The position numbers and the translations under genes are program-made. DNA of 64,000 nt from Patescibacteria group bacterium. GTDB taxonomy: Bacteria > Patescibacteriota > Patescibacteriia > Magasanikbacterales > GWA2-37-8. The notes under the pieces are model-generated. The model was not told where the DNA came from and made no database searches. It worked only from the letters and a program-made list of their open reading frames with translations. Below, one piece after another: positions 10,047 through 57,026 of this stretch (the stretch's first letter is position 1; each line of letters starts with the position of its first letter). The stretch spans positions 197,022 to 261,021 of the forward strand of contig JBAZNA010000001.1 in the NCBI GenBank assembly GCA_041649475.1, written 5' to 3'.

Positions 10047-10075
10047 TTGACAAAAAAATATTTTTAGTGTATTCT
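10047..10075 (+). promoter_or_regulatory. sigma70-like promoter (TTGACA -17- TATTCT) driving GC-rich cassette A
   Basis: Consensus -35 TTGACA, a 17-nt AT-rich spacer and -10 tattct. A structured GC-rich leader with a strong GAAGGAG ribosome-binding site lies downstream. Confidence 0.5.
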
Positions 10076-10149
10076 TGGTGATTATTCCTTAGGTAAGGAA
10101 GCCCGGACCATTCCGGTTCGGGTATGATGATAGAGGAAGGAGAAAAAAG

Positions 10150-10497
10150 ATGGGAATGCGCGCGAAGGACTGGGAGGCGGCCCAGGCCGTTTTCTTGAAA
10201 GAGGCCGGTGCCGACCCTGACCCCGACGATTCGTGGACCGTAGTTCGGTCGCCGAGTTTGCAGGAGCTTCTGCTGGCAAAGGAGCAGGAGTTCCCGGTTG
10301 AGCTCGAGCTCTCCGACGGCCGCAAGATGACCGTGTTCGTCGAGGATATCAAGGACCCCGACGCGCACGGCGAAGTGGAGGTGTACGTAATGTACGTCGC
10401 CAACGGCAACCGGCGCCGGCGGTACCTGCACTTCACCCCCGACGTCTACGAGCCCAGGGTCAACGTCTACCCCGAGCCCAAGGAATCCGTGGGCTGA
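10150..10497 (+). CDS. hypothetical protein, compositionally foreign GC-rich cassette A (115 aa)
   Basis: ATG preceded by a GAAGGAGAAAAAAG ribosome-binding site. Codon third positions are strongly G/C-biased, and the first 60 nt count about 63% GC against about 28-40% in neighbouring genes. Its own promoter is upstream and an intrinsic terminator is downstream. No recognisable domain. Confidence 0.6.
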   Translation: MGMRAKDWEAAQAVFLKEAGADPDPDDSWTVVRSPSLQELLLAKEQEFPVELELSDGRKMTVFVEDIKDPDAHGEVEVYVMYVANGNRRRRYLHFTPDVYEPRVNVYPEPKESVG

Positions 10498-10520
10498 CCC
10501 CACTTCCTCCCTCGTCTCAC

Positions 10521-10549
10521 GCCCAAGCATCTGCTTGGGCCTTTTTTTG
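10521..10549 (+). terminator. intrinsic terminator gcccaagcatctgcttgggc + T7
   Basis: 9-bp GC stem followed by ctttttttg. Confidence 0.7.
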
Positions 10550-15117: not shown

Positions 15118-15564
15118 TTATGGCCAGTTGAGTTCCGCCGGCATAGGCCAATCACTGGCGTCGAAACTCACGAATCCCGGCGTCCATTTGAACTTGGACG
15201 CTTCTCCCGGACCAGAAGTGCCCGTGAGCTCGTGAATTTTTTTAGAACTGAGCACCTTGAGCGGCGACATCTCTTTCGGCTCCGGGCTATCGATAGTGGC
15301 CTGGAGAGAATAACCAATCCCTTTCGTGGGATTGTAGAGGAGAAGTTGCGTGGCGACTTTTGCCCGTTTGTGCTCAAGGCAGTCCCACACCATCTTCAAG
15401 AGCGGCTTCTCCACTACGACCACAGGTTCATTATCCTCTGCAGTCAGAGCTGGGAATACACCCATCAGTCCGTGTTCGATCAGCAGTAGGTAACCGTACC
15501 GAAGCTGCCATCCGCTCAGATCCTTTTCGAAGATGCTTCCCAGCGCCGGTCCTTGTTTGCTCAT
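15118..15564 (-). CDS. hypothetical protein, GC-rich cassette B (148 aa)
   Basis: Start chosen at MSKQGPALG because it is preceded by TTGGAGGAAACC-ATG (GGAGG ribosome-binding site). The coding sequence is GC-rich, unlike the host. It lies 33 nt downstream of the 3' end of tRNA-Met on the same strand and is followed by a GC hairpin. No recognisable domain. Confidence 0.55.
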   Translation of the reverse strand: MSKQGPALGSIFEKDLSGWQLRYGYLLLIEHGLMGVFPALTAEDNEPVVVVEKPLLKMVWDCLEHKRAKVATQLLLYNPTKGIGYSLQATIDSPEPKEMSPLKVLSSKKIHELTGTSGPGEASKFKWTPGFVSFDASDWPMPAELNWP

Positions 15565-15597
15565 GGTTTCCTCCAAGATCGAGATCGTTTTCCCGAG

Positions 15598-15671
15598 TGT
15601 CAGGGGAGGGAGTCGGACCCTCGACCTTAGGGTTATGAATCCTACGCTCTTACCAACTGAGCTACCCTGAC
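15598..15671 (-). tRNA. tRNA-Met (anticodon CAT; could also be a lysidine-modified tRNA-Ile2)
   Basis: The reverse complement folds as a cloverleaf. It has a 7-bp acceptor stem GTCAGGG/CCCTGAC, a D-arm GCTC-AGTTGGTAA-GAGC, an anticodon loop TTCATAA and a T-arm GAGGG-TCCGACT-CCCTC. There is no encoded CCA. G1-C72 is paired, so it is an elongator type. Confidence 0.75.
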
Positions 15672-18073: not shown

Positions 18074-18400
18074 TCACAGGACCACTTCTTCGTAGTAGTC
18101 GGCCCGCTCGTGGCTAGCGTAGGGGCTTGATTTGGCATCCTTGAGCGCAGCTGCGGCGAACGGTTCGTCTATGGTGACCTCGGCAACGTTCTCGCACTTG
18201 GCGATCAACAGCTGACAACCATCACAGCCGAATCCGGTCACGGTTGCCAGAACCAGCGCCTCCTTGATCTTCGGTACCCGGCCCTCTTTGCGGATGGCTT
18301 CGGCCACATCGGCCGCGTTTTCTCCACCGCAGTCGGTCCAGAACTTGAAAACAACCTCATCACCCTTGCGCACACTAACGAGTCCGGTTTTTCCGTGCAT
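18074..18400 (-). CDS. hypothetical protein, GC-rich cassette C (108 aa, contains a GCDGC Cys pair)
   Basis: The ATG is preceded by a perfect AAGGAGG ribosome-binding site that overlaps the TAA stop of the upstream FAD oxidoreductase gene. The coding sequence is strongly GC-rich. It has no promoter of its own and ends at the terminator at 18021-18052. Confidence 0.55.
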   Translation of the reverse strand: MHGKTGLVSVRKGDEVVFKFWTDCGGENAADVAEAIRKEGRVPKIKEALVLATVTGFGCDGCQLLIAKCENVAEVTIDEPFAAAALKDAKSSPYASHERADYYEEVVL

Positions 18401-24366: not shown

Positions 24367-25447
24367 TGCTTTAAGACAAAATTGGGTGGTGATAACGGGG
24401 CTACTATTGGCGCTAGTGGTATCAATACGCCGCACTAAAGACGACTCTTTTTTTCCACCGCAAACCACCACCGAACTCAAAGGTTTGGCGATTTTAATGG
24501 TGGTTTTTTCTCATATTGGTTATTTTTTAGTCAGCGATCGCCAGTTTTTAGTGCCGCTCTCCAATTATGCCGGCGTGGGGGTGGATTTATTTTTGGTATT
24601 GTCCGGTTATGGTTTGGTGGTTTCGGCCTTGAAAAAACCATTATCAATCGGTCAATTCTACTCTAAACGTTTGCGCCGTATTTATATACCCGTGGCCGTG
24701 ACCGTGGCGCTTTTTGTTCTGCTTGATTTCTTTTTTCTGCACCTAACCTATCCTTTAAAAACCGTTATAGAAAATTTATTGGGATTTTTTCCGCGCGCGG
24801 ATTTATATCAGGATATTAATTCGCCTTTGTGGTATATCACACCGCTTCTGGCGTATTACCTTCTTTTTCCGCTGATTTTTTGGAAGCGCTTTCCGGCGGT
24901 GTCTGCCATTGGTATGGCTTTAGTCGGGTGGCTGTTTATAAAATACTCTCCCCAATTTCATATTGTTTCCGTGGATATGATAAAGCTGTATAAACTTCAC
25001 TTTCTGTCATTTCCACTGGGCGTAGCTTTGGGGGCGTTAAGTCCGATGTTAAGCCGTCTGCGTCTGTCGGCCGTTTGGCGCTGGCTGATAATTATTTTAT
25101 CTTTGGGCGTGTTTGCCTATACCTATTCTCATTCGTTTGTGACTGATAGTGTGTTAAGAGATGCAGTCGCCAGTTTGATGACGGTGATGGCTGTCATAGC
25201 CCTGTTTGTTTATAAAAAGATCAATTTTAAAATCCTCGCCCTGTTAGGCGTGTTTTCTTTTGAAATATATTTATTGCACTGGCCGCTTCTCTATCGCTAT
25301 AATTTTTTATACGGCAAAATTCCGGCCGGCTTGGCCACGCTTATTTATCTCGCCTTGTTTTTGGGACTGGGATTTTTATACCAAAAATTACTCTCCTTGT
25401 TCTATCCCGTTAGGCGTCAGCCGGATGTTTCCGGTAAGTCCGTTTGA
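24347..25447 (+). CDS. acyltransferase family 3 membrane protein (O-acyltransferase)
   Basis: Polytopic membrane protein carrying the AT3 signature near its N-terminus (LKGLAILMVVFSHIGYF). Confidence 0.7.
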   Translation: MAILITDALRQNWVVITGLLLALVVSIRRTKDDSFFPPQTTTELKGLAILMVVFSHIGYFLVSDRQFLVPLSNYAGVGVDLFLVLSGYGLVVSALKKPLSIGQFYSKRLRRIYIPVAVTVALFVLLDFFFLHLTYPLKTVIENLLGFFPRADLYQDINSPLWYITPLLAYYLLFPLIFWKRFPAVSAIGMALVGWLFIKYSPQFHIVSVDMIKLYKLHFLSFPLGVALGALSPMLSRLRLSAVWRWLIIILSLGVFAYTYSHSFVTDSVLRDAVASLMTVMAVIALFVYKKINFKILALLGVFSFEIYLLHWPLLYRYNFLYGKIPAGLATLIYLALFLGLGFLYQKLLSLFYPVRRQPDVSGKSV

Positions 25448-25822
25448 AGTGCCTTCTAAAGTGGCGGTAATGGTGTAATAATTTGTGCCGCTGGTTGAAC
25501 TGTAAATATAATTTCCGGACTGCGGATCTTTCGGAACTTTTCCCATATAAGCGCCGACACAGCCGGTGGCTTGCCAGCCGTCGGAGTTGAGGCAGGCCGT
25601 ATCAGTGTTTCCTAAAGCTACGTCATCGCCAATCGGGTAATGGTTTTCGTCGTTATTATAAAGTTCCAGGGCCGTGCCAATTTGTCTAAGATCGGCCAGC
25701 CGCTTGGTGTCTCGCGACGCGGATTTGGCCGTGCCGTAGACCACAATCACAATTGTTGCCAGTAGTCCGATAATAGCGATCACAATCAGTAATTCTATTA
25801 AAGTGAAACCTTTTTTGGACAT
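25388..25822 (-). CDS. type IV pilin-like protein (prepilin with N-terminal methylation motif)
   Basis: True start placed at MSKKG|FTLIELLIVIAIIGLLA, the classic class III signal with Gly at -1, Phe at +1 and Glu at +5. The ORF-track extension upstream to 26044 is rejected. Confidence 0.7.
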   Translation of the reverse strand: MSKKGFTLIELLIVIAIIGLLATIVIVVYGTAKSASRDTKRLADLRQIGTALELYNNDENHYPIGDDVALGNTDTACLNSDGWQATGCVGAYMGKVPKDPQSGNYIYSSTSGTNYYTITATLEGTSNGLTGNIRLTPNGIEQGE

Positions 25823-25865
25823 AAATGATTTTAGTTTTTTAAATTCGGTTGAATACATTATAACA

Positions 25866-25906
25866 TAAAAAAAGAGGCAATTCCACCGGCGGCAGAACTG
25901 CCTTGA
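25866..25906 (-). terminator. intrinsic terminator downstream of cassette D
   Basis: The reverse strand shows GC hairpins (ggcagttctgcc, gaggcaattgcctc region) ending in ctcttttttta. Confidence 0.5.
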
Positions 25907-25928
25907 AACCTTCTTCTGGTCTTCCTCC

Positions 25929-26282
25929 TTAGGTGTCAACCGTCTCCACCGGAGGGTTGGGCACTGTTGGCCCCCAGAGAGGGACGAATTCCGTGCTCTG
26001 GAAGTTCTTGCGACACAACTCTTCAAGACCAGGGGTATCGCCATCGTAGATGACCCGGGAGGCCGTAATCACGGCCCGATCCTGCTTGGACCCGAACCCC
26101 ATCTGGGCGGCCAAGTTGTAGGCGTTCCTAGCCGAAGGGGCTTCACCGTTTTTTTGCACTTCCGCGCGAATTGCGTCAGCAAAACGCTTGGTGAGATTGC
26201 CGCCGCGGCCAACCACAACTTTCATCAAAACCACGTCGCCTCGGAAAACGATGACCATTCCCGGAACAGCAGTCGTGGACAT
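25929..26282 (-). CDS. hypothetical protein, GC-rich cassette D (117 aa)
   Basis: The ATG is preceded by AAGGAGG-attctcc. The coding sequence is GC-rich. It has its own consensus promoter and terminator. No recognisable domain. Confidence 0.55.
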   Translation of the reverse strand: MSTTAVPGMVIVFRGDVVLMKVVVGRGGNLTKRFADAIRAEVQKNGEAPSARNAYNLAAQMGFGSKQDRAVITASRVIYDGDTPGLEELCRKNFQSTEFVPLWGPTVPNPPVETVDT

Positions 26283-26318
26283 GGAGAATCCTCCTTATCG
26301 CAAACAAAGCGATGTTCA

Positions 26319-26347
26319 ATTTTAACATGGGAATTTGCCAGTGTCAA
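26319..26347 (-). promoter_or_regulatory. near-consensus sigma70 promoter TTGACA -17- TAAAAT for cassette D
   Basis: Reverse strand: ttgaca ctggcaaattcccatgt taaaat, lying between the hup terminator and the cassette D ribosome-binding site. Confidence 0.55.
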
Positions 26348-26361
26348 GATTCGTAAATAAC

Positions 26362-26390
26362 AAAAAATCCCCTTCGCAGGGGACTTTTGT
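26362..26390 (-). terminator. intrinsic terminator of hup (cccctgcgaagggg + T6)
   Basis: Reverse strand: gtcccctgcgaaggggattttttg, starting 20 nt after the hup stop codon. Confidence 0.65.
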
Positions 26391-26407: not shown

Positions 26408-26683
26408 TTATTTCAAAGCATCCTTTAAGGCCTTACCAGCTTTGAATTTTGGTACGGTCACGGCTGGGATTTGGATCTTTTGAGAAGGATTTTGTGGGTT
26501 CACACCCTGGCGGGCAGCGCGCTTTTTAGCGCTGAAAGCGCCAAAACCTGTCAAAACAACCTCTTCGCCTTTCTTTAACATGTCAGTAATTACCTCTACC
26601 ATTGAGTTTAGAGTATCTTCTGTCTGTCTCTTTGGTAAATTTAATTTTTCGGCTATAGCTTGAGCTAAATCTGCTTTATTCAT
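26408..26683 (-). CDS. hup: DNA-binding protein HU
   Basis: 91 aa with a typical HU/IHF sequence (MNKADLAQAIAEKLNLPKRQTEDTLNSMVEVITDML...GFGAF...RNPQT-like arm). Confidence 0.85.
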   Translation of the reverse strand: MNKADLAQAIAEKLNLPKRQTEDTLNSMVEVITDMLKKGEEVVLTGFGAFSAKKRAARQGVNPQNPSQKIQIPAVTVPKFKAGKALKDALK

Positions 26684-29440: not shown

Positions 29441-29471
29441 ACTATCCCTGCATTATAAACATAATTTTAAA

Positions 29472-29502
29472 ATAAAAAAAGAGCTTCCCTGGGGAGGGAA
29501 GT
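29472..29502 (-). terminator. intrinsic terminator downstream of cassette E (cttccctccccagggaag + T7)
   Basis: Reverse strand: cttccctccccagggaagctcttttttt. Confidence 0.65.
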
Positions 29503-29580
29503 TCAGTGGGGGTTGGCTCCGGTGTGATCGCCTGATGGCGAATTGGAGCACGGTAGGAAAGAGCAGGGCGGGGCGGCTGG

Positions 29581-29922
29581 CTAGCCGGCGGCGGAAGCGG
29601 CGATGGGGGCGATCTTGGGCTGGATGTCGATCACGGGGATCGGCTCGGGCAGACCGTCGAAGCGCTGGCGGAGCCAGTCGATCTCGGGCTCCGAGGCCTC
29701 GCCCATGAAGATCTCGATGTAGAACGTCCCCCTGATGAGGCCCTCGTACTTCAGCTTGAAGCCGGGGATCTCGTCGTCGAAGTCGGCCTTGTGCGGCCTG
29801 TTGACGTACCTGTTGAAGTCGTTGAGCGAGCAGTACCTGACGCTGCCGTCCACGAACTGGATCCGTACGGCCCTTGTCTGCAAGGTCGTGTCCGGGAACG
29901 TCATCAGCTTCTGGATCGGCAT
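29581..29922 (-). CDS. hypothetical protein, GC-rich cassette E (113 aa from MPIQKL)
   Basis: Start chosen at the methionine preceded by AAGGAGagggag. The ORF-track ORF extends to 29994 with an Arg-rich low-complexity N-terminus that is probably untranslated leader. The coding sequence is GC-rich, and both its 5' leader (about 105 nt) and its 3' UTR (about 90 nt) are long and GC-rich. Confidence 0.5.
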   Translation of the reverse strand: MPIQKLMTFPDTTLQTRAVRIQFVDGSVRYCSLNDFNRYVNRPHKADFDDEIPGFKLKYEGLIRGTFYIEIFMGEASEPEIDWLRQRFDGLPEPIPVIDIQPKIAPIAASAAG

Positions 29923-30037
29923 CTCCCTCTCCTTGGGACTACGAGCTCGTGTGACCATCTTGTTATGCCTCCCTTGTTTCCGTGTTGGGCCCAATGCCCC
30001 TAAACTTGTTGGCCTTGTCCAGGCCGTGATGGGCTAA

Positions 30038-30066
30038 ATGGTATCACAATAATACGATTATGTCAA
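30038..30066 (-). promoter_or_regulatory. candidate promoter TTGACA -17- TACCAT for cassette E
   Basis: Reverse strand: ttgaca taatcgtattattgtga taccat. The -10 element is weak. Confidence 0.35.
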
Positions 30067-41855: not shown

Positions 41856-41884
41856 TTGACCAATTGTCTTTTTTATGCTAAAGT
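41856..41884 (+). promoter_or_regulatory. sigma70-like promoter TTGACC -17- TAAAGT for cassette F
   Basis: ttgacc aattgtcttttttatgc taaagt, followed by the leader hairpin cctgccagagaaaggcagg and an AAGGAGG ribosome-binding site. Confidence 0.5.
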
Positions 41885-41931
41885 ATGTGGTTCCTGCCAG
41901 AGAAAGGCAGGTCAGAAAGGAGGCCTCTCGG

Positions 41932-42312
41932 ATGACACGGGTCATGAGTTTGATGGCTTTCTACGCGACTTATCGTCTCTTAAAGGTCGCGTACCGTGCG
42001 ACCGAGAGACAGCTTAGGCTATTCTTCGTCCCCAAGCCGGGGTGCGAGGGGGCCTACGAGGTGGATGAGCAAATCTTCGCCAAGGTTCGGACGCTCATCG
42101 TCAATTCCAGGTCGTTTCAGACCGAAATCTACCCGCTGAACGCCAGTGACGTGGGGGAAGATTTCCGCCTTGGCGACCAGGATTTCACCGGCTCGGTGAT
42201 GGTCTGGCTGAAGGAAGTAGATCCTTTAGACGCACTGTTTACCGACAGAATCAAGGAGGTTGTGTTCGGAGAGGAGAAAGAGTATCGCTTTCAGTGCGGT
42301 TCCCGCAACTAG
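41932..42312 (+). CDS. hypothetical protein, GC-rich cassette F (126 aa from MTRVMSL)
   Basis: Start chosen at the methionine 8 nt after the AAGGAGG ribosome-binding site. The ORF-track start at 41875 lies inside the leader. The coding sequence is GC-rich, and a GC hairpin follows the stop codon. Confidence 0.55.
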   Translation: MTRVMSLMAFYATYRLLKVAYRATERQLRLFFVPKPGCEGAYEVDEQIFAKVRTLIVNSRSFQTEIYPLNASDVGEDFRLGDQDFTGSVMVWLKEVDPLDALFTDRIKEVVFGEEKEYRFQCGSRN

Positions 42313-42406
42313 CATCTGGGCGCTCATCTTCACTCCTCTCCGGGCGCCTTTACTACTTGGACTCGGATTGGTATAATATATTTACTAAAATTTAATTTTA
42401 TATCAT

Positions 42407-42973: not shown

Positions 42974-44259
42974 TGTCCGGTTTTTATCACATCACAACCT
43001 TCGGCTGTCAGATGAATAAAAATGACTCCGAGCGTCTTTCGGCTCTGTTAAATTCCCTTGGTTTACAAAACACAATTCGGCCGGAACAGGCCGATTTGTT
43101 GTTTATAAATACCTGCAGTGTCCGCCAGCATGCGGAAGACAGGGTGTTTGGCTTGGTGAGGGAATGGCAAAAATTACGGTCGGCCAAACCGAATTTGATT
43201 ATCGGCGTTACCGGCTGTATGCCGGGCAGAGACAAGGACGGAAAGCTGAAAGAAAAAATTCCGGGAGCGGATTTATTTTTTGGCATTGAAGAAATGGTGA
43301 TGTTGCCGAAATGGATCAGGGGATTAAATCCGGATTTGATTGCGCCAGCCAAGGGTTTAAGCGACTATCTTTTGATTAATCCGGTGAGAGAAAATAAAGC
43401 CAAGGCGTTTATTACGATTGCTACCGGCTGTAATAATTTTTGTACCTATTGCGTAGTGCCTTATGCGCGTGGCCGGGAAAAGAACAGGCCGGCTAAAGAT
43501 ATTTTAAATGAGATTAAGACCGCGGCTGTGGATGGCTGTAAAGAGGTAACTCTGCTGGGTCAGACCGTAAATAATTATAAAGATGGAGATTATGACTTTG
43601 TTGATTTGCTGGAGGATGTGAATAAAATTAGCGGGATTGAACGAATAAATTGGACGGCTCCGGATCCGCAGTATTTTAACGATCGTCAGATTGAGGCCTT
43701 AAAATTGCCCAAGCAAATGAATTATTTGCATTTACCAGCGCAAAGCGGGGATAATGAGATTTTAAGAAAAATGAATCGCAAATATACGCGTGAAGATTAT
43801 ATTAATTTGGTGAAAAAAATTCGCGCCGCTCGGCCGGAAATCGCTTTGGGCACTGATTTGATCGTTGGCTTTTGCGGAGAAACCGAAGAACAATTCCAAA
43901 ACACTTTGGATTTATATAAACAATGCGATTTTGATATTTCCTATCACGCCATGTATAGTTCAAGAAGCGGAACAGCCGCGGCCAAGGCGTTTAAAGATGA
44001 TGTGCTCCAGGAAGAAAAAAAGCGCCGTTGGCGCGCGGTTCAGGATTTGATGGAAGAAATTGTTTATCGGAAAAATCAAAAATATTTAAATCAGACAGTT
44101 TCGGTTTTGGTTGATTCGTGCGAAGAGGGGGTATGTAGCGGAAATTCCAGCGAGATGAAACTGGTTCAGTTTCCGGGCAATGAAGATTTAATTGGCCAGA
44201 TTATTGATGTTAAAATCACCAGGCCGGAGATGTGGGTGTTGAGAGGAGTGCTAGTTTAA
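42973..44259 (+). CDS. miaB: tRNA-i6A37 methylthiotransferase MiaB
   Basis: UPF0004 N-terminal domain (TFGCQMN), a radical-SAM CxxxCxxC motif (CNNFCTYC) and a TRAM domain, 428 aa. Confidence 0.85.
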   Translation: MSGFYHITTFGCQMNKNDSERLSALLNSLGLQNTIRPEQADLLFINTCSVRQHAEDRVFGLVREWQKLRSAKPNLIIGVTGCMPGRDKDGKLKEKIPGADLFFGIEEMVMLPKWIRGLNPDLIAPAKGLSDYLLINPVRENKAKAFITIATGCNNFCTYCVVPYARGREKNRPAKDILNEIKTAAVDGCKEVTLLGQTVNNYKDGDYDFVDLLEDVNKISGIERINWTAPDPQYFNDRQIEALKLPKQMNYLHLPAQSGDNEILRKMNRKYTREDYINLVKKIRAARPEIALGTDLIVGFCGETEEQFQNTLDLYKQCDFDISYHAMYSSRSGTAAAKAFKDDVLQEEKKRRWRAVQDLMEEIVYRKNQKYLNQTVSVLVDSCEEGVCSGNSSEMKLVQFPGNEDLIGQIIDVKITRPEMWVLRGVLV

Positions 44260-44286
44260 TTAGAATATTATTTGGTAGAGGGTACA

Positions 44287-45174
44287 CTAAAGTTTGATAC
44301 TTTTGAGAGATATTTTTAAATATAAATTTGAAGTCTTGTTTATTAAGAATTTTAATGTTTTGGGCAATACCCTGTCTAATAATGCAAGAAACGAGATAGT
44401 ATATATTAAGGTTAAAAAATTATTTTTAAGTATCGTGATTATAAAATTTGGTTTATAATCCATCTTCCAGAATATTATATAAAGAATAAAATGTAATATG
44501 CAGAAGAATGCTATTGGCCAGAATGGAGCTTTAAAACCAAGTAGATCCCATTTTTCTGGCTCACCGAATTGGTTATTACTTTCGGGCGAGTTATAAATTT
44601 TATCATTCTTCATAATCCTTGACCAAATATCAGTGAATTTGGTTCCAGATATTATAAGTAGTAACCATTGAAAGCAGTCAGATATAAATTTTATAATATC
44701 GGTTATAATTACCCTCCAAAATAATAATTTTAACCTAAGTTTAAAACCCTTTAGTGGCATGGTTGGTTTTGTATGAAGCAAGTATAGCTCGTCGAGTAAC
44801 ATATTTGCTGTTATTTCTTTATTTTTTTTATAAAATTTGTTCAAGATAACATCATAAAAATACTCATCATTTGAAGTAAAATCTATCGGGCCAGTAACTT
44901 TTTTTATTTTATCTTGGTTACTCAATGATATGTAAGATCCTTTGTCATCTTCTTTAAGTTTTCCATAGCTAACCCTTATGGATAGGGGTTTAATGTTGCC
45001 ATCCTTCAGTACATTTTCATTACTGATGTAAATATAGAATATTGATCCCCAATCGTCTGAACCCATTTTTCTAATTATACTAAAGCCAAATTTGCAATCT
45101 TTTAAAGGAGTGAGATTCAAAAATAATCCATTAGTTCCTATATTAAAATCTTTTATGAAATCTTGATTTTCCAT
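44287..45174 (-). CDS. hypothetical membrane protein encoded by an AT-rich insert between miaB and miaA
   Basis: 295 aa. The N-terminal half of about 190 aa is soluble and Lys/Asn/Ile-rich. The C-terminal part carries about three predicted transmembrane helices. GC is visibly lower than in the flanking genes. Confidence 0.5.
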   Translation of the reverse strand: MENQDFIKDFNIGTNGLFLNLTPLKDCKFGFSIIRKMGSDDWGSIFYIYISNENVLKDGNIKPLSIRVSYGKLKEDDKGSYISLSNQDKIKKVTGPIDFTSNDEYFYDVILNKFYKKNKEITANMLLDELYLLHTKPTMPLKGFKLRLKLLFWRVIITDIIKFISDCFQWLLLIISGTKFTDIWSRIMKNDKIYNSPESNNQFGEPEKWDLLGFKAPFWPIAFFCILHFILYIIFWKMDYKPNFIITILKNNFLTLIYTISFLALLDRVLPKTLKFLINKTSNLYLKISLKSIKL

Positions 45175-45291
45175 ATATAAATTTTATGTTAATAAATTGT
45201 AATCAATTTTTGCTTATTTCCATTAAAACTGCTAGAATGTTTAAAGTTATTCAGATTATATAGTAATTGTGTAGTTAAGTCAAAAATTCAC

Positions 45292-46188
45292 ATGGACCGA
45301 ACCCTGCCAAAATTAATCGTCATCCTCGGTCCCACCGGCTCCGGGAAAACGGATCTGGGGATTGCGGTTGCCAAAAAGTATAATGGCGAAATTATTTCGG
45401 CTGATTCAAGACAGATTTACAAACAAATGAACATCGGCACGGCCAAGCCCAAGGGGGAGTGGCAGGACGGCGCTTATACTGTAAACGGCGTTCCGCACTA
45501 TCTAATGGATATAATCAATCCGGATGAAAATTTCACGGTGGCGGATTTTAAAGAGCAGGCCACTTTCCATATCAATGACATTTTAAAACGTAAAAAATTA
45601 CCTATTATTGTCGGCGGCACCGGATTGTATATTCAATCAATTGTAGATAATTTGGATATTCCTAAAGTGGCGCCCAGCACCGAGCTAAGATCAGAATTAG
45701 AAAAGAAAACCCAGCCGGAACTTATAGAAATATTAAAACAACTTGATCCGGAATCTGCCGAAAAAATAGATTTAAAAAATCCGCGCCGGGTTTTGCGGGC
45801 GCTGGAAGTGGCAATGATAACCGGTGAATCATTTTTTAATCAAAGAAAGAAGCAAGTGCCACTTTATGACGCCAAAGAATTTGGTATCAACATTTCCAAA
45901 GAGGAATTATATAGACGACTGGACGCCAGAGTGGACCAACAAATCAAAGACGGGCTGGTTGAAGAAGTAAAAAATTTATCTCAAAAATACAGTTGGGATT
46001 TGCCCAGCATGAGCGGAATTGGTTATAAACAGATCGGCTGCTTCCTGCGTGGCGAAATGACTTTGGAACAGGCAATTGAAGTTTTAAAGAGAGATACCAG
46101 AAGATATGCCAAGCGCCAAATGACCTGGTTTAAAAAGGATCAGAGAATAAATTGGATTACTGATTTAGAAGAATTTCATCTCCCATGA
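45292..46188 (+). CDS. miaA: tRNA dimethylallyltransferase MiaA
   Basis: P-loop GPTGSGKT and the conserved SADSRQIYK motif, 298 aa. Confidence 0.9.
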   Translation: MDRTLPKLIVILGPTGSGKTDLGIAVAKKYNGEIISADSRQIYKQMNIGTAKPKGEWQDGAYTVNGVPHYLMDIINPDENFTVADFKEQATFHINDILKRKKLPIIVGGTGLYIQSIVDNLDIPKVAPSTELRSELEKKTQPELIEILKQLDPESAEKIDLKNPRRVLRALEVAMITGESFFNQRKKQVPLYDAKEFGINISKEELYRRLDARVDQQIKDGLVEEVKNLSQKYSWDLPSMSGIGYKQIGCFLRGEMTLEQAIEVLKRDTRRYAKRQMTWFKKDQRINWITDLEEFHLP

Positions 46189-55680: not shown

Positions 55681-55734
55681 AGTTGTGGGCGCGGTGCGCT
55701 TAGGTTGAGTATATTTTACGCCAACTGCCCAACA

Positions 55735-55763
55735 TTGACAAGAGAGCTGTTTTAGTGTTAATT
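55735..55763 (+). promoter_or_regulatory. sigma70-like promoter TTGACA -17- TTAATT for cassette G
   Basis: ttgaca agagagctgttttagtg ttaatt, followed by a leader of about 70 nt and an AAGGAG ribosome-binding site 7 nt before the ATG. Confidence 0.45.
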
Positions 55764-55838
55764 TAACGTGCTGTGGCGAAACCATTCTGGCCAAGCCCGA
55801 CAGCGTCTGTAAACACGGTCGTATAAAGGAGACAAAAC

Positions 55839-56504
55839 ATGGCGACCGCAAAACAGATTCCGTTTTTGATGGGAAGGTTGGTGGAGCATCAGTTTTACTT
55901 CTGTGCTTTGTCCACCGCAAGCGCCACGTGGGCGAGCCAAAACCCGAAAGACGCCATTGCCTTGTGCGTGGCGGCGATCGAGAATCGCCAAAAGGAGCGT
56001 CAGTCCGACCCGGCGCCTTCGCCACTCCTCACCTTGGTCGGTGCCGTCGTGATCTGGCTGGCCGTGAGGTTCGTTGCCAGTGAACACCTGGTGAAGAATA
56101 CCGAGAAGAACGCGCCGGTGAAGATTTCCTACATCTTCGATAAGGTCACCGTGTGGTTCCAGGGCAAGATCGAGGAGCGGGTCGAGGGCGAGATGGCTCT
56201 GTGCTGCCATACCCTGAACTCCGACTCGGACGATAACCTCATCATCAACCAGCTCGGCGGCGAGACCAAGGCCGAGACCGCCCTTGCCGAGGTCTTTGCC
56301 TGCTTGGAGAAGCAACCCAACGGCGAGGATGGTGCGCTACTCACTAACGGCCACGCGAACATCTTCTATGTTCGCAACACCGAAGGTGTGTTGTGCGTGA
56401 TCCAAGTGATCTGGCGCGGTGACGGTTGGACCTTCTACACCCGTTCGGTCGGTTCTCTGGACACATGTACCGAGGGCCGCCGGGTGTTCTCCCGCGCCGC
56501 ATAG
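55839..56504 (+). CDS. hypothetical protein, GC-rich cassette G (221 aa)
   Basis: GC-rich coding sequence with its own promoter and ribosome-binding site, followed by an intrinsic terminator. No recognisable domain. There is one hydrophobic segment (LLTLVGAVVIWLAV). Confidence 0.55.
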   Translation: MATAKQIPFLMGRLVEHQFYFCALSTASATWASQNPKDAIALCVAAIENRQKERQSDPAPSPLLTLVGAVVIWLAVRFVASEHLVKNTEKNAPVKISYIFDKVTVWFQGKIEERVEGEMALCCHTLNSDSDDNLIINQLGGETKAETALAEVFACLEKQPNGEDGALLTNGHANIFYVRNTEGVLCVIQVIWRGDGWTFYTRSVGSLDTCTEGRRVFSRAA

Positions 56505-56523
56505 TTTGTTCCTTCCTTCCAAG

Positions 56524-56558
56524 CGCCCCGCCTGTCAGATGGTGGGGCATTTTTTTAT
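56524..56558 (+). terminator. intrinsic terminator gccccgcctgtcagatggtggggc + T8
   Basis: 5-bp GC stem, a long loop and catttttttat. Confidence 0.6.
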
Positions 56559-56594: not shown

Positions 56595-56600
56595 TAACCC

Positions 56601-56994
56601 ATTCATAGCGGATGATCGAGCCGACTTAGTCGGCTAGGAAAGTCCGAACACCCAAGATGGCAGTGGGTAACGCCCACCGCTACGGTGGCAACGCCGTGGT
56701 TGGGAAAGTGGCACAGAGACAATTCTAACCCCGACAAGCTCGGGGTAAAAGGTGAAAAGTGTATGGGGGATTTGGTTCTCGAGACCAAAGCTACTATACT
56801 CGGCTGATAGCAATATCAGTTCGTGCTAAACCCTGCCTGGTGCAAGAGCAGCGTTTCGCGGCGCAAAACCGCGGTTCGAAAAGTTCGCTCGCTAGAACGC
56901 GTTAGCAATAACGCGTCCAGATAAATGATCGTCACCTCGCCCCATTTTTAAACAAAATGGTGCGGAGCACAAAATTCGGCTTATAGCTATGAAT
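56601..56994 (+). ncRNA. rnpB: RNase P RNA (bacterial type A)
   Basis: P1 pairing ttcatagc/gctatgaa. P2 gagccga...tcggctt and a P3 hairpin ccgacttagtcgg. P4 5' strand AGGAAAGTCCG and 3' strand ACAAAATTCGGCTTA. Conserved GGGTAACGCC, GTGGCACAGAGACAAT and GGTAAAAGGTGAAAAGTG blocks match the E. coli M1 RNA pattern. Confidence 0.8.
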
Positions 56995-56995
56995 A

Positions 56996-57026
56996 AAAAA
57001 GACGACCCGCAAGGGCCGTCTTTTAA
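56996..57026. terminator. bidirectional intrinsic terminator (gacgacccgcaagggccgtc) flanked by A6 and T4
   Basis: aaaaaagacgacccgcaagggccgtctttt. It ends rnpB (+) and the convergent 57040-58578 gene (-). Confidence 0.65.

What the first reader, a model, noticed from the sequence alone, without database searches (positions are those of the whole stretch)
25866..26347. Cassette D has a near-perfect sigma70 promoter (TTGACA-17-TAAAAT) wedged between the hup terminator and the pilin promoter
Reading the minus strand, the order is the hup stop, the hup terminator, TTGACA-17-TAAAAT, AAGGAGG, a 117-aa GC-rich ORF (GMVIVFRGDVVLMKVVVGRGGN...), and a terminator whose T-run abuts the -10 region of the type IV pilin gene. 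The insert therefore separates a pilin from its likely upstream context and may transcriptionally insulate it.
Basis: seen in the sequence. Interest (0 to 1): 0.6.

Follow-up and report, generated by a model that had tools for sequence, protein, structure and literature searches.

The report
Stand-alone GC-rich accessory gene, phage-linked family
The flagged stretch is a real, self-contained small gene (own strong promoter, ribosome-binding site and terminator) in a Patescibacteria genome; it encodes a diverged member of an unnamed protein family shared with phages and looks horizontally acquired, but it is not a special device that insulates the pilin gene.

Summary
On the minus strand the order is: hup, hup terminator, TTGACA-17-TAAAAT with a TG extended -10, AAGGAGG, a 117-codon ORF with 57.6% GC, a 13-bp terminator, and the pilin's extended -10 four bases after the T-run.

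The ORF is a real gene (WC526_01135). dN/dS is 0.35 against a 76%-identical ortholog. That ortholog keeps both promoter hexamers and the terminator pairing.

The promoter is not exceptional. The window holds ten sites with at least 11 of 12 matches, including those upstream of rny, infB and rnpB.

The protein belongs (hhalign 99.8%) to an unnamed family of about 108 aa with at least 312 clusters. The family has no match in Pfam, PHROGs, PADLOC or NCBIfam. It occurs as solitary genes in Patescibacteria chromosomes and in tailed-phage replication or early regions, including Tunturiibacter phage Tunturi_5 gp18.

Chromosomal copies exceed local GC in 10 of 10 loci. Phage copies track their own genome's GC. 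This argues for horizontal acquisition.

No empty site, repeats or integrase were found. In the sister genome the gene still sits next to the pilin but not next to hup. "Insert between hup and pilin" is therefore only partly supported.

Molecular function is unknown. A T-fold-like model and two fusions to PpnP domains weakly suggest nucleoside or nucleobase chemistry.

The parts
26408..26683 (-). hup (HU-type DNA-binding protein, 91 aa), the upstream neighbour
   Evidence: ORF. The ortholog in L004 carries Pfam Bac_DNA_binding.
26363..26388 (-). hup intrinsic terminator
   Evidence: Found by the scan. Fold energy is -16.9 kcal/mol, z = -4.5.
26319..26347 (-). Promoter of ORF D: -35 TTGACA (26347-26342), 17-nt spacer, TG (26327-26326), -10 TAAAAT (26324-26319)
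   Evidence: Both hexamers and the TG are identical in L001; only two spacer bases differ. Homology with L001 begins at 26351.
26283..26318 (-). 5' UTR with a small hairpin (26312-26298) and the Shine-Dalgarno AAGGAGG (26296-26290)
   Evidence: Sequence and fold. The promoter plus UTR is 91% identical to L001, against 81.5% for the ORF. No Rfam family matches here.
25929..26282 (-). ORF D, 117 aa (WC526_01135), a diverged member of an unnamed family of about 108 aa (core motifs MATQG...K...GFG...FNPRW..GTAD)
   Evidence: dN/dS is 0.345. The profile search is. hhalign gives 99.8% probability. The AF2 model has pLDDT 92.5.
25867..25903 (-). Intrinsic terminator of ORF D: 13-bp stem, 3-nt loop, then C and seven T
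   Evidence: Fold energy is -18.6 kcal/mol. Four stem substitutions in L001 all keep pairing, and the L001 hairpin folds at -18.9 kcal/mol.
25857..25865 (-). Extended -10 promoter (TGTTATAAT) of the type IV pilin gene; no good -35, and that position falls inside the D terminator
   Evidence: Sequence. The stretch from the T-run to the pilin ATG is identical in L001.
25388..25822 (-). Type IV pilin-like gene (144 aa, N-terminal FTLIELL motif), the downstream neighbour
   Evidence: The ortholog in L001 carries Pfam N_methyl and T2SSG.
18074..18400 (-). ORF B, 108 aa (WC526_01095): second member of the same family in the window. GC is 0.58. It has no promoter of its own; its Shine-Dalgarno overlaps the stop codon of the upstream FAD-oxidoreductase-like gene.

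Best explanation
Window 25867-26347 (minus strand) is one ordinary monocistronic gene. It has a strong native-type sigma-70 promoter with an extended -10, a short leader, a consensus ribosome-binding site, a 117-codon ORF and an efficient intrinsic terminator.

The ORF encodes a small protein with no evident signal peptide or membrane segment on reading the sequence (no predictor was run). It is a diverged member of a widespread but uncharacterised protein family. That family is carried by tailed phages, in replication or early-gene regions, and occurs as solitary genes scattered among housekeeping genes in Patescibacteria chromosomes.

The most likely history is horizontal acquisition of the coding sequence from a GC-richer gene pool, such as phages or other mobile DNA. 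This happened before the split from the sister lineage. The gene was then fixed under purifying selection and is expressed from a host-type promoter. It resembles a phage 'moron' in anatomy, but it sits in a chromosome.

The two terminators simply make hup, ORF D and the pilin three independent transcription units.

The molecular function is not established. My best guess, at low confidence, is a small oligomeric nucleobase- or nucleoside-binding or -modifying protein, which could serve nucleotide salvage or phage-host conflict.

Shown: the anatomy, coding status, family membership, phage and chromosome distribution, and the GC pattern. Inferred: the direction of transfer, expression and function.
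For: Anatomy.

Conservation in the ortholog locus L001:
- Both promoter hexamers are identical.
- The leader is 91% identical.
- The terminator keeps pairing through four substitutions.

Coding status: dN/dS is 0.345 with dS 0.41. The neighbouring acyltransferase gives 0.158.

Family:
- 312 clusters at 50% identity with E <= 1e-3.
- 322 proteins found in the word-indexed search with E <= 1e-3.
- hhalign of the D/B group against the core family gives 99.8%, E = 1.9e-30.
- No match to a described family of its own in Pfam, PHROGs, PADLOC or NCBIfam, only isolated weak single-member hits, and no sequence relative in the PDB.

Phage carriage:
- Seven IMG/VR contigs carry a family member. Neighbours scanned in four of them (L027, L031, L032, L033) include terminase, a sliding clamp, an SbcC-like protein, a PD-(D/E)XK nuclease and an HNH endonuclease.
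- Locus L115 has a phage-like early region.
- The cultured phage Tunturi_5 has the domain in gp18, annotated hypothetical, in its replication module.

Chromosomal copies are solitary genes between housekeeping genes at different sites. Several have their own TTGACA-17 promoter and terminator.

GC pattern:
- The gene exceeds local GC in 10 of 10 chromosomal loci, by 5.5 to 22 points.
- It tracks the contig's GC in 9 phage loci, from -7 to +7 points.
- High GC3 is therefore not intrinsic to the family.

Function lead:
- The model has pLDDT 92.5 and beta-beta-alpha-alpha-beta-beta topology.
- Two family proteins are fused to a PpnP nucleoside-phosphorylase domain above Pfam's threshold.
Against: - No empty site was found, so insertion is inferred from composition only.
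- The elevated GC stops at the ORF ends; the promoter and leader have host-like composition.
- GC3 is the same (0.67) in both orthologs after dS of about 0.4, so no amelioration is visible.
- The phages that carry the family and have 55-62% GC are unlikely to infect a 43% GC host, so the donor is unknown.
- ORF D lacks several residues that are invariant in the core family: Q of TQG, N and R of FNPRW, and T and D of GTAD. Any enzymatic role of the core family may therefore not apply to D.
Confidence: 0.6

Rival explanations
1. This is an ordinary, vertically inherited, lineage-specific Patescibacteria gene. The high GC reflects something other than transfer, for example selection on the mRNA or on codons of a short, strongly expressed gene.
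For: - The ortholog sits at the same place relative to the pilin in the sister genome.
- The gene is under purifying selection.
- GC3 is unchanged after dS of 0.41.
- The promoter and leader are native-type.
- There are no mobility signatures.
- The family is common in Patescibacteria chromosomes.
Against: - GC3 is 0.67 against about 0.47 for neighbours, while the strongly expressed hup has 0.37.
- The excess recurs in 10 of 10 chromosomal loci from unrelated genomes and at unrelated sites.
- Phage copies range from GC3 0.23 to 0.78, following their own genomes, so the family has no intrinsic need for GC-rich codons.
- Only two close relatives of D exist among 5.8 billion proteins.
Confidence: 0.2
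2. ORF D is functionally coupled to the pilin gene, for example as a regulator or accessory factor, or as a deliberate transcriptional insulator. On this view the D-pilin pair is the real unit.
For: - D-pilin adjacency is kept in L001 although the upstream neighbour differs.
- The D terminator and pilin promoter junction is identical over about 60 nt.
- The position where the pilin -35 would lie falls inside the D terminator hairpin.
Against: - None of 80 other pilin loci has a family member nearby.
- None of the other chromosomal family loci has a pilin as immediate neighbour. L117 has a PilB-type ATPase gene about 3.4 kb away.
- The paralog B sits behind an oxidoreductase-like gene.
- Phage copies lie in replication modules.
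- Only one related genome shows the adjacency, which is what plain synteny would give.
Confidence: 0.1
3. The six GC-rich units in the window are cassettes of an active mobile system (integron-like, homing or transposon-borne) that targets terminator-promoter junctions.
For: - Five of the six units (A, C, D, E, F) share the layout of a TTGAC(A/C) -35, a 17-nt spacer, a -10 hexamer (preceded by TG in C, D and E), a Shine-Dalgarno sequence, a GC-rich ORF and a terminator, all in intergenic gaps.
- In L004 the gap after the hup terminator holds a different GC-rich ORF.
Against: - The units share no sequence beyond the generic -35 hexamer and T-runs.
- There are no attC-like sites, terminal inverted repeats or target duplications.
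- No integrase or transposase was noticed among the ORFs listed around D and across the window. These were read, not family-scanned.
- Unit B has no promoter.
- Apart from the paralogs B and D, the six ORF products share no detected protein family, and their DNA units share nothing.
- Promoters of this kind also precede rny, infB and rnpB.
Confidence: 0.05

Closest known systems
Phage 'morons' (self-contained extra genes in lambdoid prophages; concept from established phage genomics, my own knowledge)
   Same: - One ORF has its own promoter and its own terminator.
- Its base composition differs from the flanks.
- It is wedged between two genes that do not need it.
- The protein family is carried by phages.
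   Different: - The unit sits in a bacterial chromosome between hup and a pilin gene, not in a prophage. No phage genes lie in the flanks.
- No related genome lacking the unit at this site was found.
- The promoter has host-like composition.
Unnamed family of about 108 aa (core consensus MATQGLVTV..MKIVAGCDG..GFG..YRxTFxQPxFNPRWxxGTAD), e.g. Tunturiibacter phage Tunturi_5 gp18 (XOB77461.1, annotated hypothetical protein)
   Same: - hhalign gives 99.8% probability.
- The length and predicted fold are the same.
- The conserved Lys, Gly, Tyr, GFG, F..P.W and G positions are kept.
   Different: - D and its paralog B are divergent. D has FVPLW instead of FNPRW, GPTV instead of GTAD, and no Gln after the N-terminal Thr.
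- D is only 24-38% identical to the other members, apart from its 76%-identical ortholog P0002.
- No member of the family has a known function.
T-fold (tunnelling-fold) enzymes: QueF, dihydroneopterin aldolase, GTP cyclohydrolase I, PTPS
   Same: - The model has beta-beta-alpha-alpha-beta-beta core topology and a size of about 110 aa.
- Family members fused to a nucleoside phosphorylase domain fit a nucleobase ligand.
   Different: - The oligomeric state and ligand are unknown.
Integron gene cassettes
   Same: These are also short single-ORF units of foreign composition, several of which occur in one region.
   Different: - Integron cassettes are promoterless and end in an attC site next to an integrase.
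- Here each unit has its own promoter and terminator, no attC-like repeat and no integrase, and the units are dispersed.

Membership tests
Sigma-70 housekeeping-type promoter with extended -10 | -35 TTGACA and -10 TATAAT hexamers with 17 +/- 1 nt spacing, and TG one base upstream of the -10 | tested here: met
   The promoter matches 11 of 12 positions, has a 17-nt spacer and carries the TG.
Sigma-70 housekeeping-type promoter with extended -10 | Conserved in orthologous loci and correctly placed upstream of a gene | tested here: met
   The hexamers and the TG are identical in L001. The -10 ends 36 nt upstream of the ATG.
Sigma-70 housekeeping-type promoter with extended -10 | Drives transcription in vivo | not testable with these tools
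   No transcriptome or reporter data are available.
Intrinsic (Rho-independent) terminator | GC-rich hairpin immediately followed by a T-run, with pairing conserved | tested here: met
   The stem has 13 bp and folds at -18.6 kcal/mol, followed by seven T. Four substitutions in L001 all keep pairing.
Phage moron | Own promoter and terminator around a single ORF | tested here: met
Phage moron | Base composition different from the flanks | tested here: met
   The ORF has GC 0.576 and GC3 0.669, against 0.43 and 0.47 for the flanks.
Phage moron | Located inside a phage or prophage genome | tested here: not met
   By their translations the flanking genes are rny, hup, a pilin, an acyltransferase-like gene and truB (rny, hup and the pilin are confirmed by Pfam in orthologous loci). 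No phage genes were noticed.
Phage moron | Absent from the same site in related genomes | tested here: inconclusive
   The unit is present next to the pilin in L001. The region downstream of hup differs in L004. No empty site was found.
Integron gene cassette | attC recombination site, a promoterless ORF and an integron integrase nearby | tested here: not met
   There is no shared repeat or imperfect inverted repeat at the unit ends. The unit has its own promoter. No integrase was noticed among the ORFs listed; these were read, not family-scanned.
Unnamed MATQG...FNPRW family (about 108 aa) | Significant profile-profile match over the full length | tested here: met
   hhalign gives 99.8%, E = 1.9e-30, over 105 columns.
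Unnamed MATQG...FNPRW family (about 108 aa) | Invariant residues of the core family (T-Q-G, K, G..G, Y, GFG region, R.TF, FNPRW, G.A) | tested here: inconclusive
   D keeps T, G, K21, G25, G28, Y55, A58, G62-F63-G64, R91, F94, F..P.W and G. It lacks Q, N, R, T and D.
T-fold superfamily | beta-beta-alpha-alpha-beta-beta core topology | tested here: met
   The DSSP string of the pLDDT 92.5 model reads E8-14, E17-24, H28-45, H51-61, E69-73, E77-79.
T-fold superfamily | Structural similarity at a level that implies homology, and a conserved Glu/Gln ligand anchor at an oligomer interface | tested here: inconclusive
   [not shown]
Ntn hydrolase / proteasome subunit | Four-layer alpha-beta-beta-alpha sandwich of about 200 aa with an N-terminal nucleophile | tested here: not met
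   [not shown]

The most novel reading that the evidence does not exclude
The MATQG...FNPRW proteins are a new T-fold-like family that acts on nucleobases or nucleosides and is shared between tailed phages and Patescibacteria. Streamlined Patescibacteria genomes have repeatedly captured such GC-rich phage-pool ORFs. They wire each to a consensus promoter and terminator in the short gaps between housekeeping genes, and this is a general route of gene gain. ORF D and ORF B would be two independent captures of this kind, serving nucleotide salvage or protection against phages.
Probability: 0.15. Interest if true: 0.6.

Novelty: new member of a known kind. Interest (0 to 1): 0.35.

Why it matters
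As first framed, a remarkable promoter and an insulating insert, the finding is ordinary. Consensus promoters and tight terminator-promoter junctions are how this compact genome is built.

What is worth keeping is the by-product.
- A protein family with at least 312 clusters, absent from Pfam, PHROGs, PADLOC and NCBIfam, now has a confident structural model.
- The family is distributed between phages and Patescibacteria.
- Two fusions give a lead towards nucleoside metabolism.
- The chromosomal copies are consistently richer in GC than their hosts.

Patescibacteria cannot make nucleotides de novo and depend on salvage and on DNA uptake (established knowledge of the group). A recurrently acquired, strongly expressed small protein with such a link would therefore be a reasonable target for biochemical work.

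Tried and rejected
- **Family and structure libraries.** Pfam, PHROGs, PADLOC and NCBIfam scans of D, its paralog and 60 or 18 family members gave no family. A profile search of PDB sequences gave nothing with E < 0.2. Foldseek against BFVD gave nothing with E < 0.1. The afdb50 library was not available.
- **RNA families.** An Rfam scan of the window found only rnpB and three tRNAs, with no element in the D leader.
- **Search for an empty site.**
  - An acyltransferase query in GTDB genomes returned 13 loci. These were too distant (43-59% aa), had no pilin or D, and carried a different HU paralog.
  - A pilin query in metagenomes returned 80 loci. The best was 51% identical, and none had a family member, hup or the acyltransferase arrangement.
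- **Mobile-element signatures.** No terminal inverted repeats or target duplications flank D. The six GC-rich units share no flank sequence.
- **Phage relatives of D, C and F.** tblastn of D, C and F against cultured phages gave no match. Close-relative scans of A, C, E and F in IMG/VR gave none.
- **Alignment-based locus searches.** Searches with A3 and A4 failed for lack of a conserved stretch. A5 worked for viral contigs only.
- **Literature and names.** Literature searches found nothing on the family or on such units in Patescibacteria. A cluster look-up gave no organism names.

Full report
**1. The observation**

- hup is at 26408-26683, and its terminator at 26388-26363.
- The -35 TTGACA is at 26347-26342, followed by a 17-nt spacer whose last bases are TGT.
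- The -10 TAAAAT is at 26324-26319.
- AAGGAGG is at 26296-26290, and the ATG at 26282.
- The ORF has 117 codons and ends at 25929.
- A 13-bp hairpin lies at 25903-25875, followed by C and seven T.
- Four bases later comes TGTTATAAT (25865-25857), in front of the pilin ATG at 25822.

The two hairpins fold at -16.9 and -18.6 kcal/mol. None of 200 shuffles did as well.

The ORF has GC 0.576 and GC3 0.669. Ordinary genes of the window have GC of about 0.43 and GC3 of about 0.47.

**2. Is the promoter special?**

No. My own scan of the window found 10 sites with at least 11 of 12 matches. Markov simulations gave 1.2 +/- 1.25. The sites include TTGACA-17-TATAGT upstream of rny (28591), TTGACT-17-TATAAT upstream of infB (30083) and TTGACA-17-TATAGT upstream of the RNase P RNA (56566; Rfam hit).

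Near-consensus promoters, often with a TG, are how this genome starts its genes. The D promoter is real and probably strong, but it is native in type.

**3. Is the ORF a gene?**

Yes. It is annotated as WC526_01135 in a 963-kb contig of a 'Patescibacteria group bacterium' MAG. A 76%-identical ortholog (P0002) occurs on three short contigs from SRR254905xx runs.

Nei-Gojobori counting gives dN 0.143, dS 0.414 and dN/dS 0.345. The C-terminal part of the neighbouring acyltransferase gives 0.158.

The nucleotide alignment of L001 with the window starts at window position 26351, four bases upstream of the -35. It continues through the ORF, the pilin and the acyltransferase. Identity by segment:
- promoter and leader: 91%
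- ORF: 81.5%
- terminator and pilin promoter region: 83%
- pilin: 84%

Both hexamers and the TG are identical. The four substitutions in the terminator stem all keep pairing (C-G to U-G, A-U to G-U, G-U to G-C, G-U to A-U). The ortholog hairpin folds at -18.9 kcal/mol. The stretch from the T-run to the pilin ATG is identical.

**4. Is it an insert between hup and the pilin?**

- In L001 the gene upstream of the D promoter is a divergently transcribed 288-aa protein with an N-terminal hydrophobic, signal-like stretch, not hup. That gene is absent from the window.
- In L004, a more distant relative, rny-hup is conserved. The hup terminator there is followed by a different GC-rich ORF (239 aa, GC 0.62) on the opposite strand, then by an epimerase and a CmpB-like gene.
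- The conserved pair is therefore D-pilin, and the variable junction lies upstream of the D promoter.

I looked for an empty site in two ways. One used the acyltransferase in GTDB genomes. The other used the pilin in metagenomes. All hits were too distant to be informative.

There are no inverted or direct repeats at the ends of the unit.

The window holds five other GC-rich small ORFs:
- A: 10150-10497
- B: 18074-18400
- C: 29581-29994
- E: 41875-42312
- F: 55839-56504

A, C, E and F share the layout of promoter, Shine-Dalgarno, ORF and terminator. They share no flank sequence with D or with each other beyond the -35 hexamer and T-runs. B has no promoter at all. Nothing points to a common mobile scaffold.

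**5. What the protein is**

D and B are paralogs (BLASTP E = 1e-7). B has its own ortholog (P0004) and a 54% relative (P0005).

A profile of these five sequences, searched against 1.84 billion cluster representatives, found 312 proteins with E <= 1e-3. Nearly all are 100-125 aa long. The core family has a sharp signature: MATQG at the N-terminus, MK(I/V)VAGCDG, GFG, YRxTF and FNPRWxxGTAD.

hhalign of the D/B group against 18 core members gives 99.8% probability and E = 1.9e-30 over the full length. D keeps about two thirds of the invariant positions. It has FVPLW for FNPRW, GPTV for GTAD, and no Gln after the Thr.

D is no closer to B (24-29% to the B group) than to core members (up to 38%). 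I read the two as separate lineages of the family rather than a recent duplication. This is an inference.

No Pfam, PHROGs, PADLOC or NCBIfam model matches, and neither does any PDB sequence.

**6. Structure**

With the 60-sequence alignment, AlphaFold2 gives pLDDT 92.5 and pTM 0.87. The model has a beta-hairpin, two long helices, two strands, a short helix and a final strand.

The topology is that of a T-fold core. The domain is half the size of an Ntn hydrolase. I treat both as resemblance only.

**7. Where the family lives**

- The four named members are Patescibacteria or 'bacterium' MAGs, including a Campbellbacteria genome of 811 kb.
- In chromosomal loci the gene is always solitary and sits between housekeeping genes at unrelated sites. 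Examples are BipA-X-CspA, GatCA-X-Lgt-DnaA, a position next to the ATP synthase operon, and a position near PyrG.
- Several chromosomal copies have their own TTGACA-17 promoter and terminator.
- The family is also in seven IMG/VR contigs of 4.7 to 463 kb. Scanned neighbours in four of them include a terminase large subunit, a sliding clamp, an SbcC-like ATPase, a PD-(D/E)XK exonuclease, an HNH endonuclease and DUF932.
- It occurs in a phage-like early region on a 133-kb contig.
- It occurs in the cultured jumbo phage Tunturi_5 (PP885688). There gp18 carries the domain, between the processivity factor, a DNA methyltransferase, the primase and the clamp loader.

**8. Composition**

In 10 of 10 chromosomal loci the family gene is richer in GC than the rest of its locus, by 5.5 to 21.8 points. 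In 9 phage loci it follows the contig, from -7.1 to +7.2 points, with GC3 ranging from 0.23 to 0.78.

The family therefore has no intrinsic need for GC-rich codons. The excess in chromosomes is best explained by acquisition from a GC-richer pool.

Three points argue against a simple story:
- The excess stops at the ORF ends.
- GC3 is the same in D and its ortholog after dS 0.41.
- Phages of 55-62% GC are unlikely to infect a 43% GC host.

The donor and the time of transfer remain open. The transfer must predate the split from the SRR254905xx lineage, because both D and B are in place there.

**9. Function**

Function is unknown. Two leads point the same way.
- The T-fold-like topology: T-fold enzymes bind purines and pterins (established knowledge).
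- Two family proteins are fused to a C-terminal PpnP pyrimidine/purine nucleoside phosphorylase domain. Their scores are 37.9 and 28.0 bits against a cut-off of 25. One of the two has a tandem duplication of the family domain.

The phage copies lie in replication and nucleotide-metabolism neighbourhoods.

I therefore propose, at low confidence, a small oligomeric protein that binds or modifies a nucleobase or nucleoside. It could serve salvage or the phage-host conflict. D lacks several core invariants, so it may have drifted to another role.

**10. Verdict**

The thing is a normal monocistronic accessory gene. It is moron-like in anatomy and composition but chromosomal, and it encodes a diverged member of an unnamed family shared with phages. 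The 'insulation' is two ordinary terminators between three independently transcribed genes.

I rate it a new member of a known kind, with moderate-to-low interest. The value lies in the family and in the recurrent GC excess, not in the promoter.

Noticed in passing
window 10047-10545 (A), 29470-30066 (C), 41856-42360 (E), 55713-56550 (F): Four further GC-rich small ORFs (GC 0.54-0.62; GC3 up to 0.90 in C) lie between housekeeping genes. Each has a TTGAC(A/C)-17 promoter (TG-extended in C and E), a leader of roughly 45-75 nt, a strong Shine-Dalgarno sequence and its own terminator. They sit upstream of dnaE, between infB and truB, after thrS, and before rnpB. None has a Pfam or PHROG match or a close relative in viral contigs (A, C, E, F); C and F also had no match in cultured phages.
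   Followed up: partly
window 18074-18400 (-): ORF B is the second member of the same family. It has GC 0.58 but no promoter. Its Shine-Dalgarno overlaps the stop codon of the upstream 433-aa FAD-oxidoreductase-like gene. The same arrangement occurs in the sister lineage (L007).
   Followed up: yes
L004 3119-3838 (-): In a related genome the gap right after the hup terminator holds a different GC-rich ORF (239 aa, GC 0.62, GC3 0.83) on the opposite strand. The region downstream of hup may be a recurrent landing place for foreign ORFs.
   Followed up: partly
L010 3556-7018 (Campbellbacteria CP064977.1): The family member here lies in a small island of four GC-rich orphan ORFs (GC 0.53-0.63, against 0.46 for the locus) between recR and dnaB.
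   Followed up: no
proteins P0007 (329 aa) and P0076 (209 aa): These family domains are fused to a C-terminal PpnP (PF06865) nucleoside phosphorylase domain. P0007 and P0043 also carry a tandem duplication of the family domain.
   Followed up: partly
window 44287-45174 (-): This is the opposite kind of compositional outlier: a 295-aa ORF with GC 0.28 in an AT-rich island (44200-45300).
   Followed up: no
window 15118-15576 (-): A 152-aa ORF with GC 0.54 and GC3 0.62 lies next to a tRNA gene (15598-15671). It has no PHROG match and may be a seventh GC-rich unit.
   Followed up: no
window 56600-56999 (+): This is the RNase P RNA (class A, 175 bits). It explains part of the GC-rich stretch after unit F. 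Its TTGACA-17-TATAGT promoter starts right after the F terminator.
   Followed up: yes
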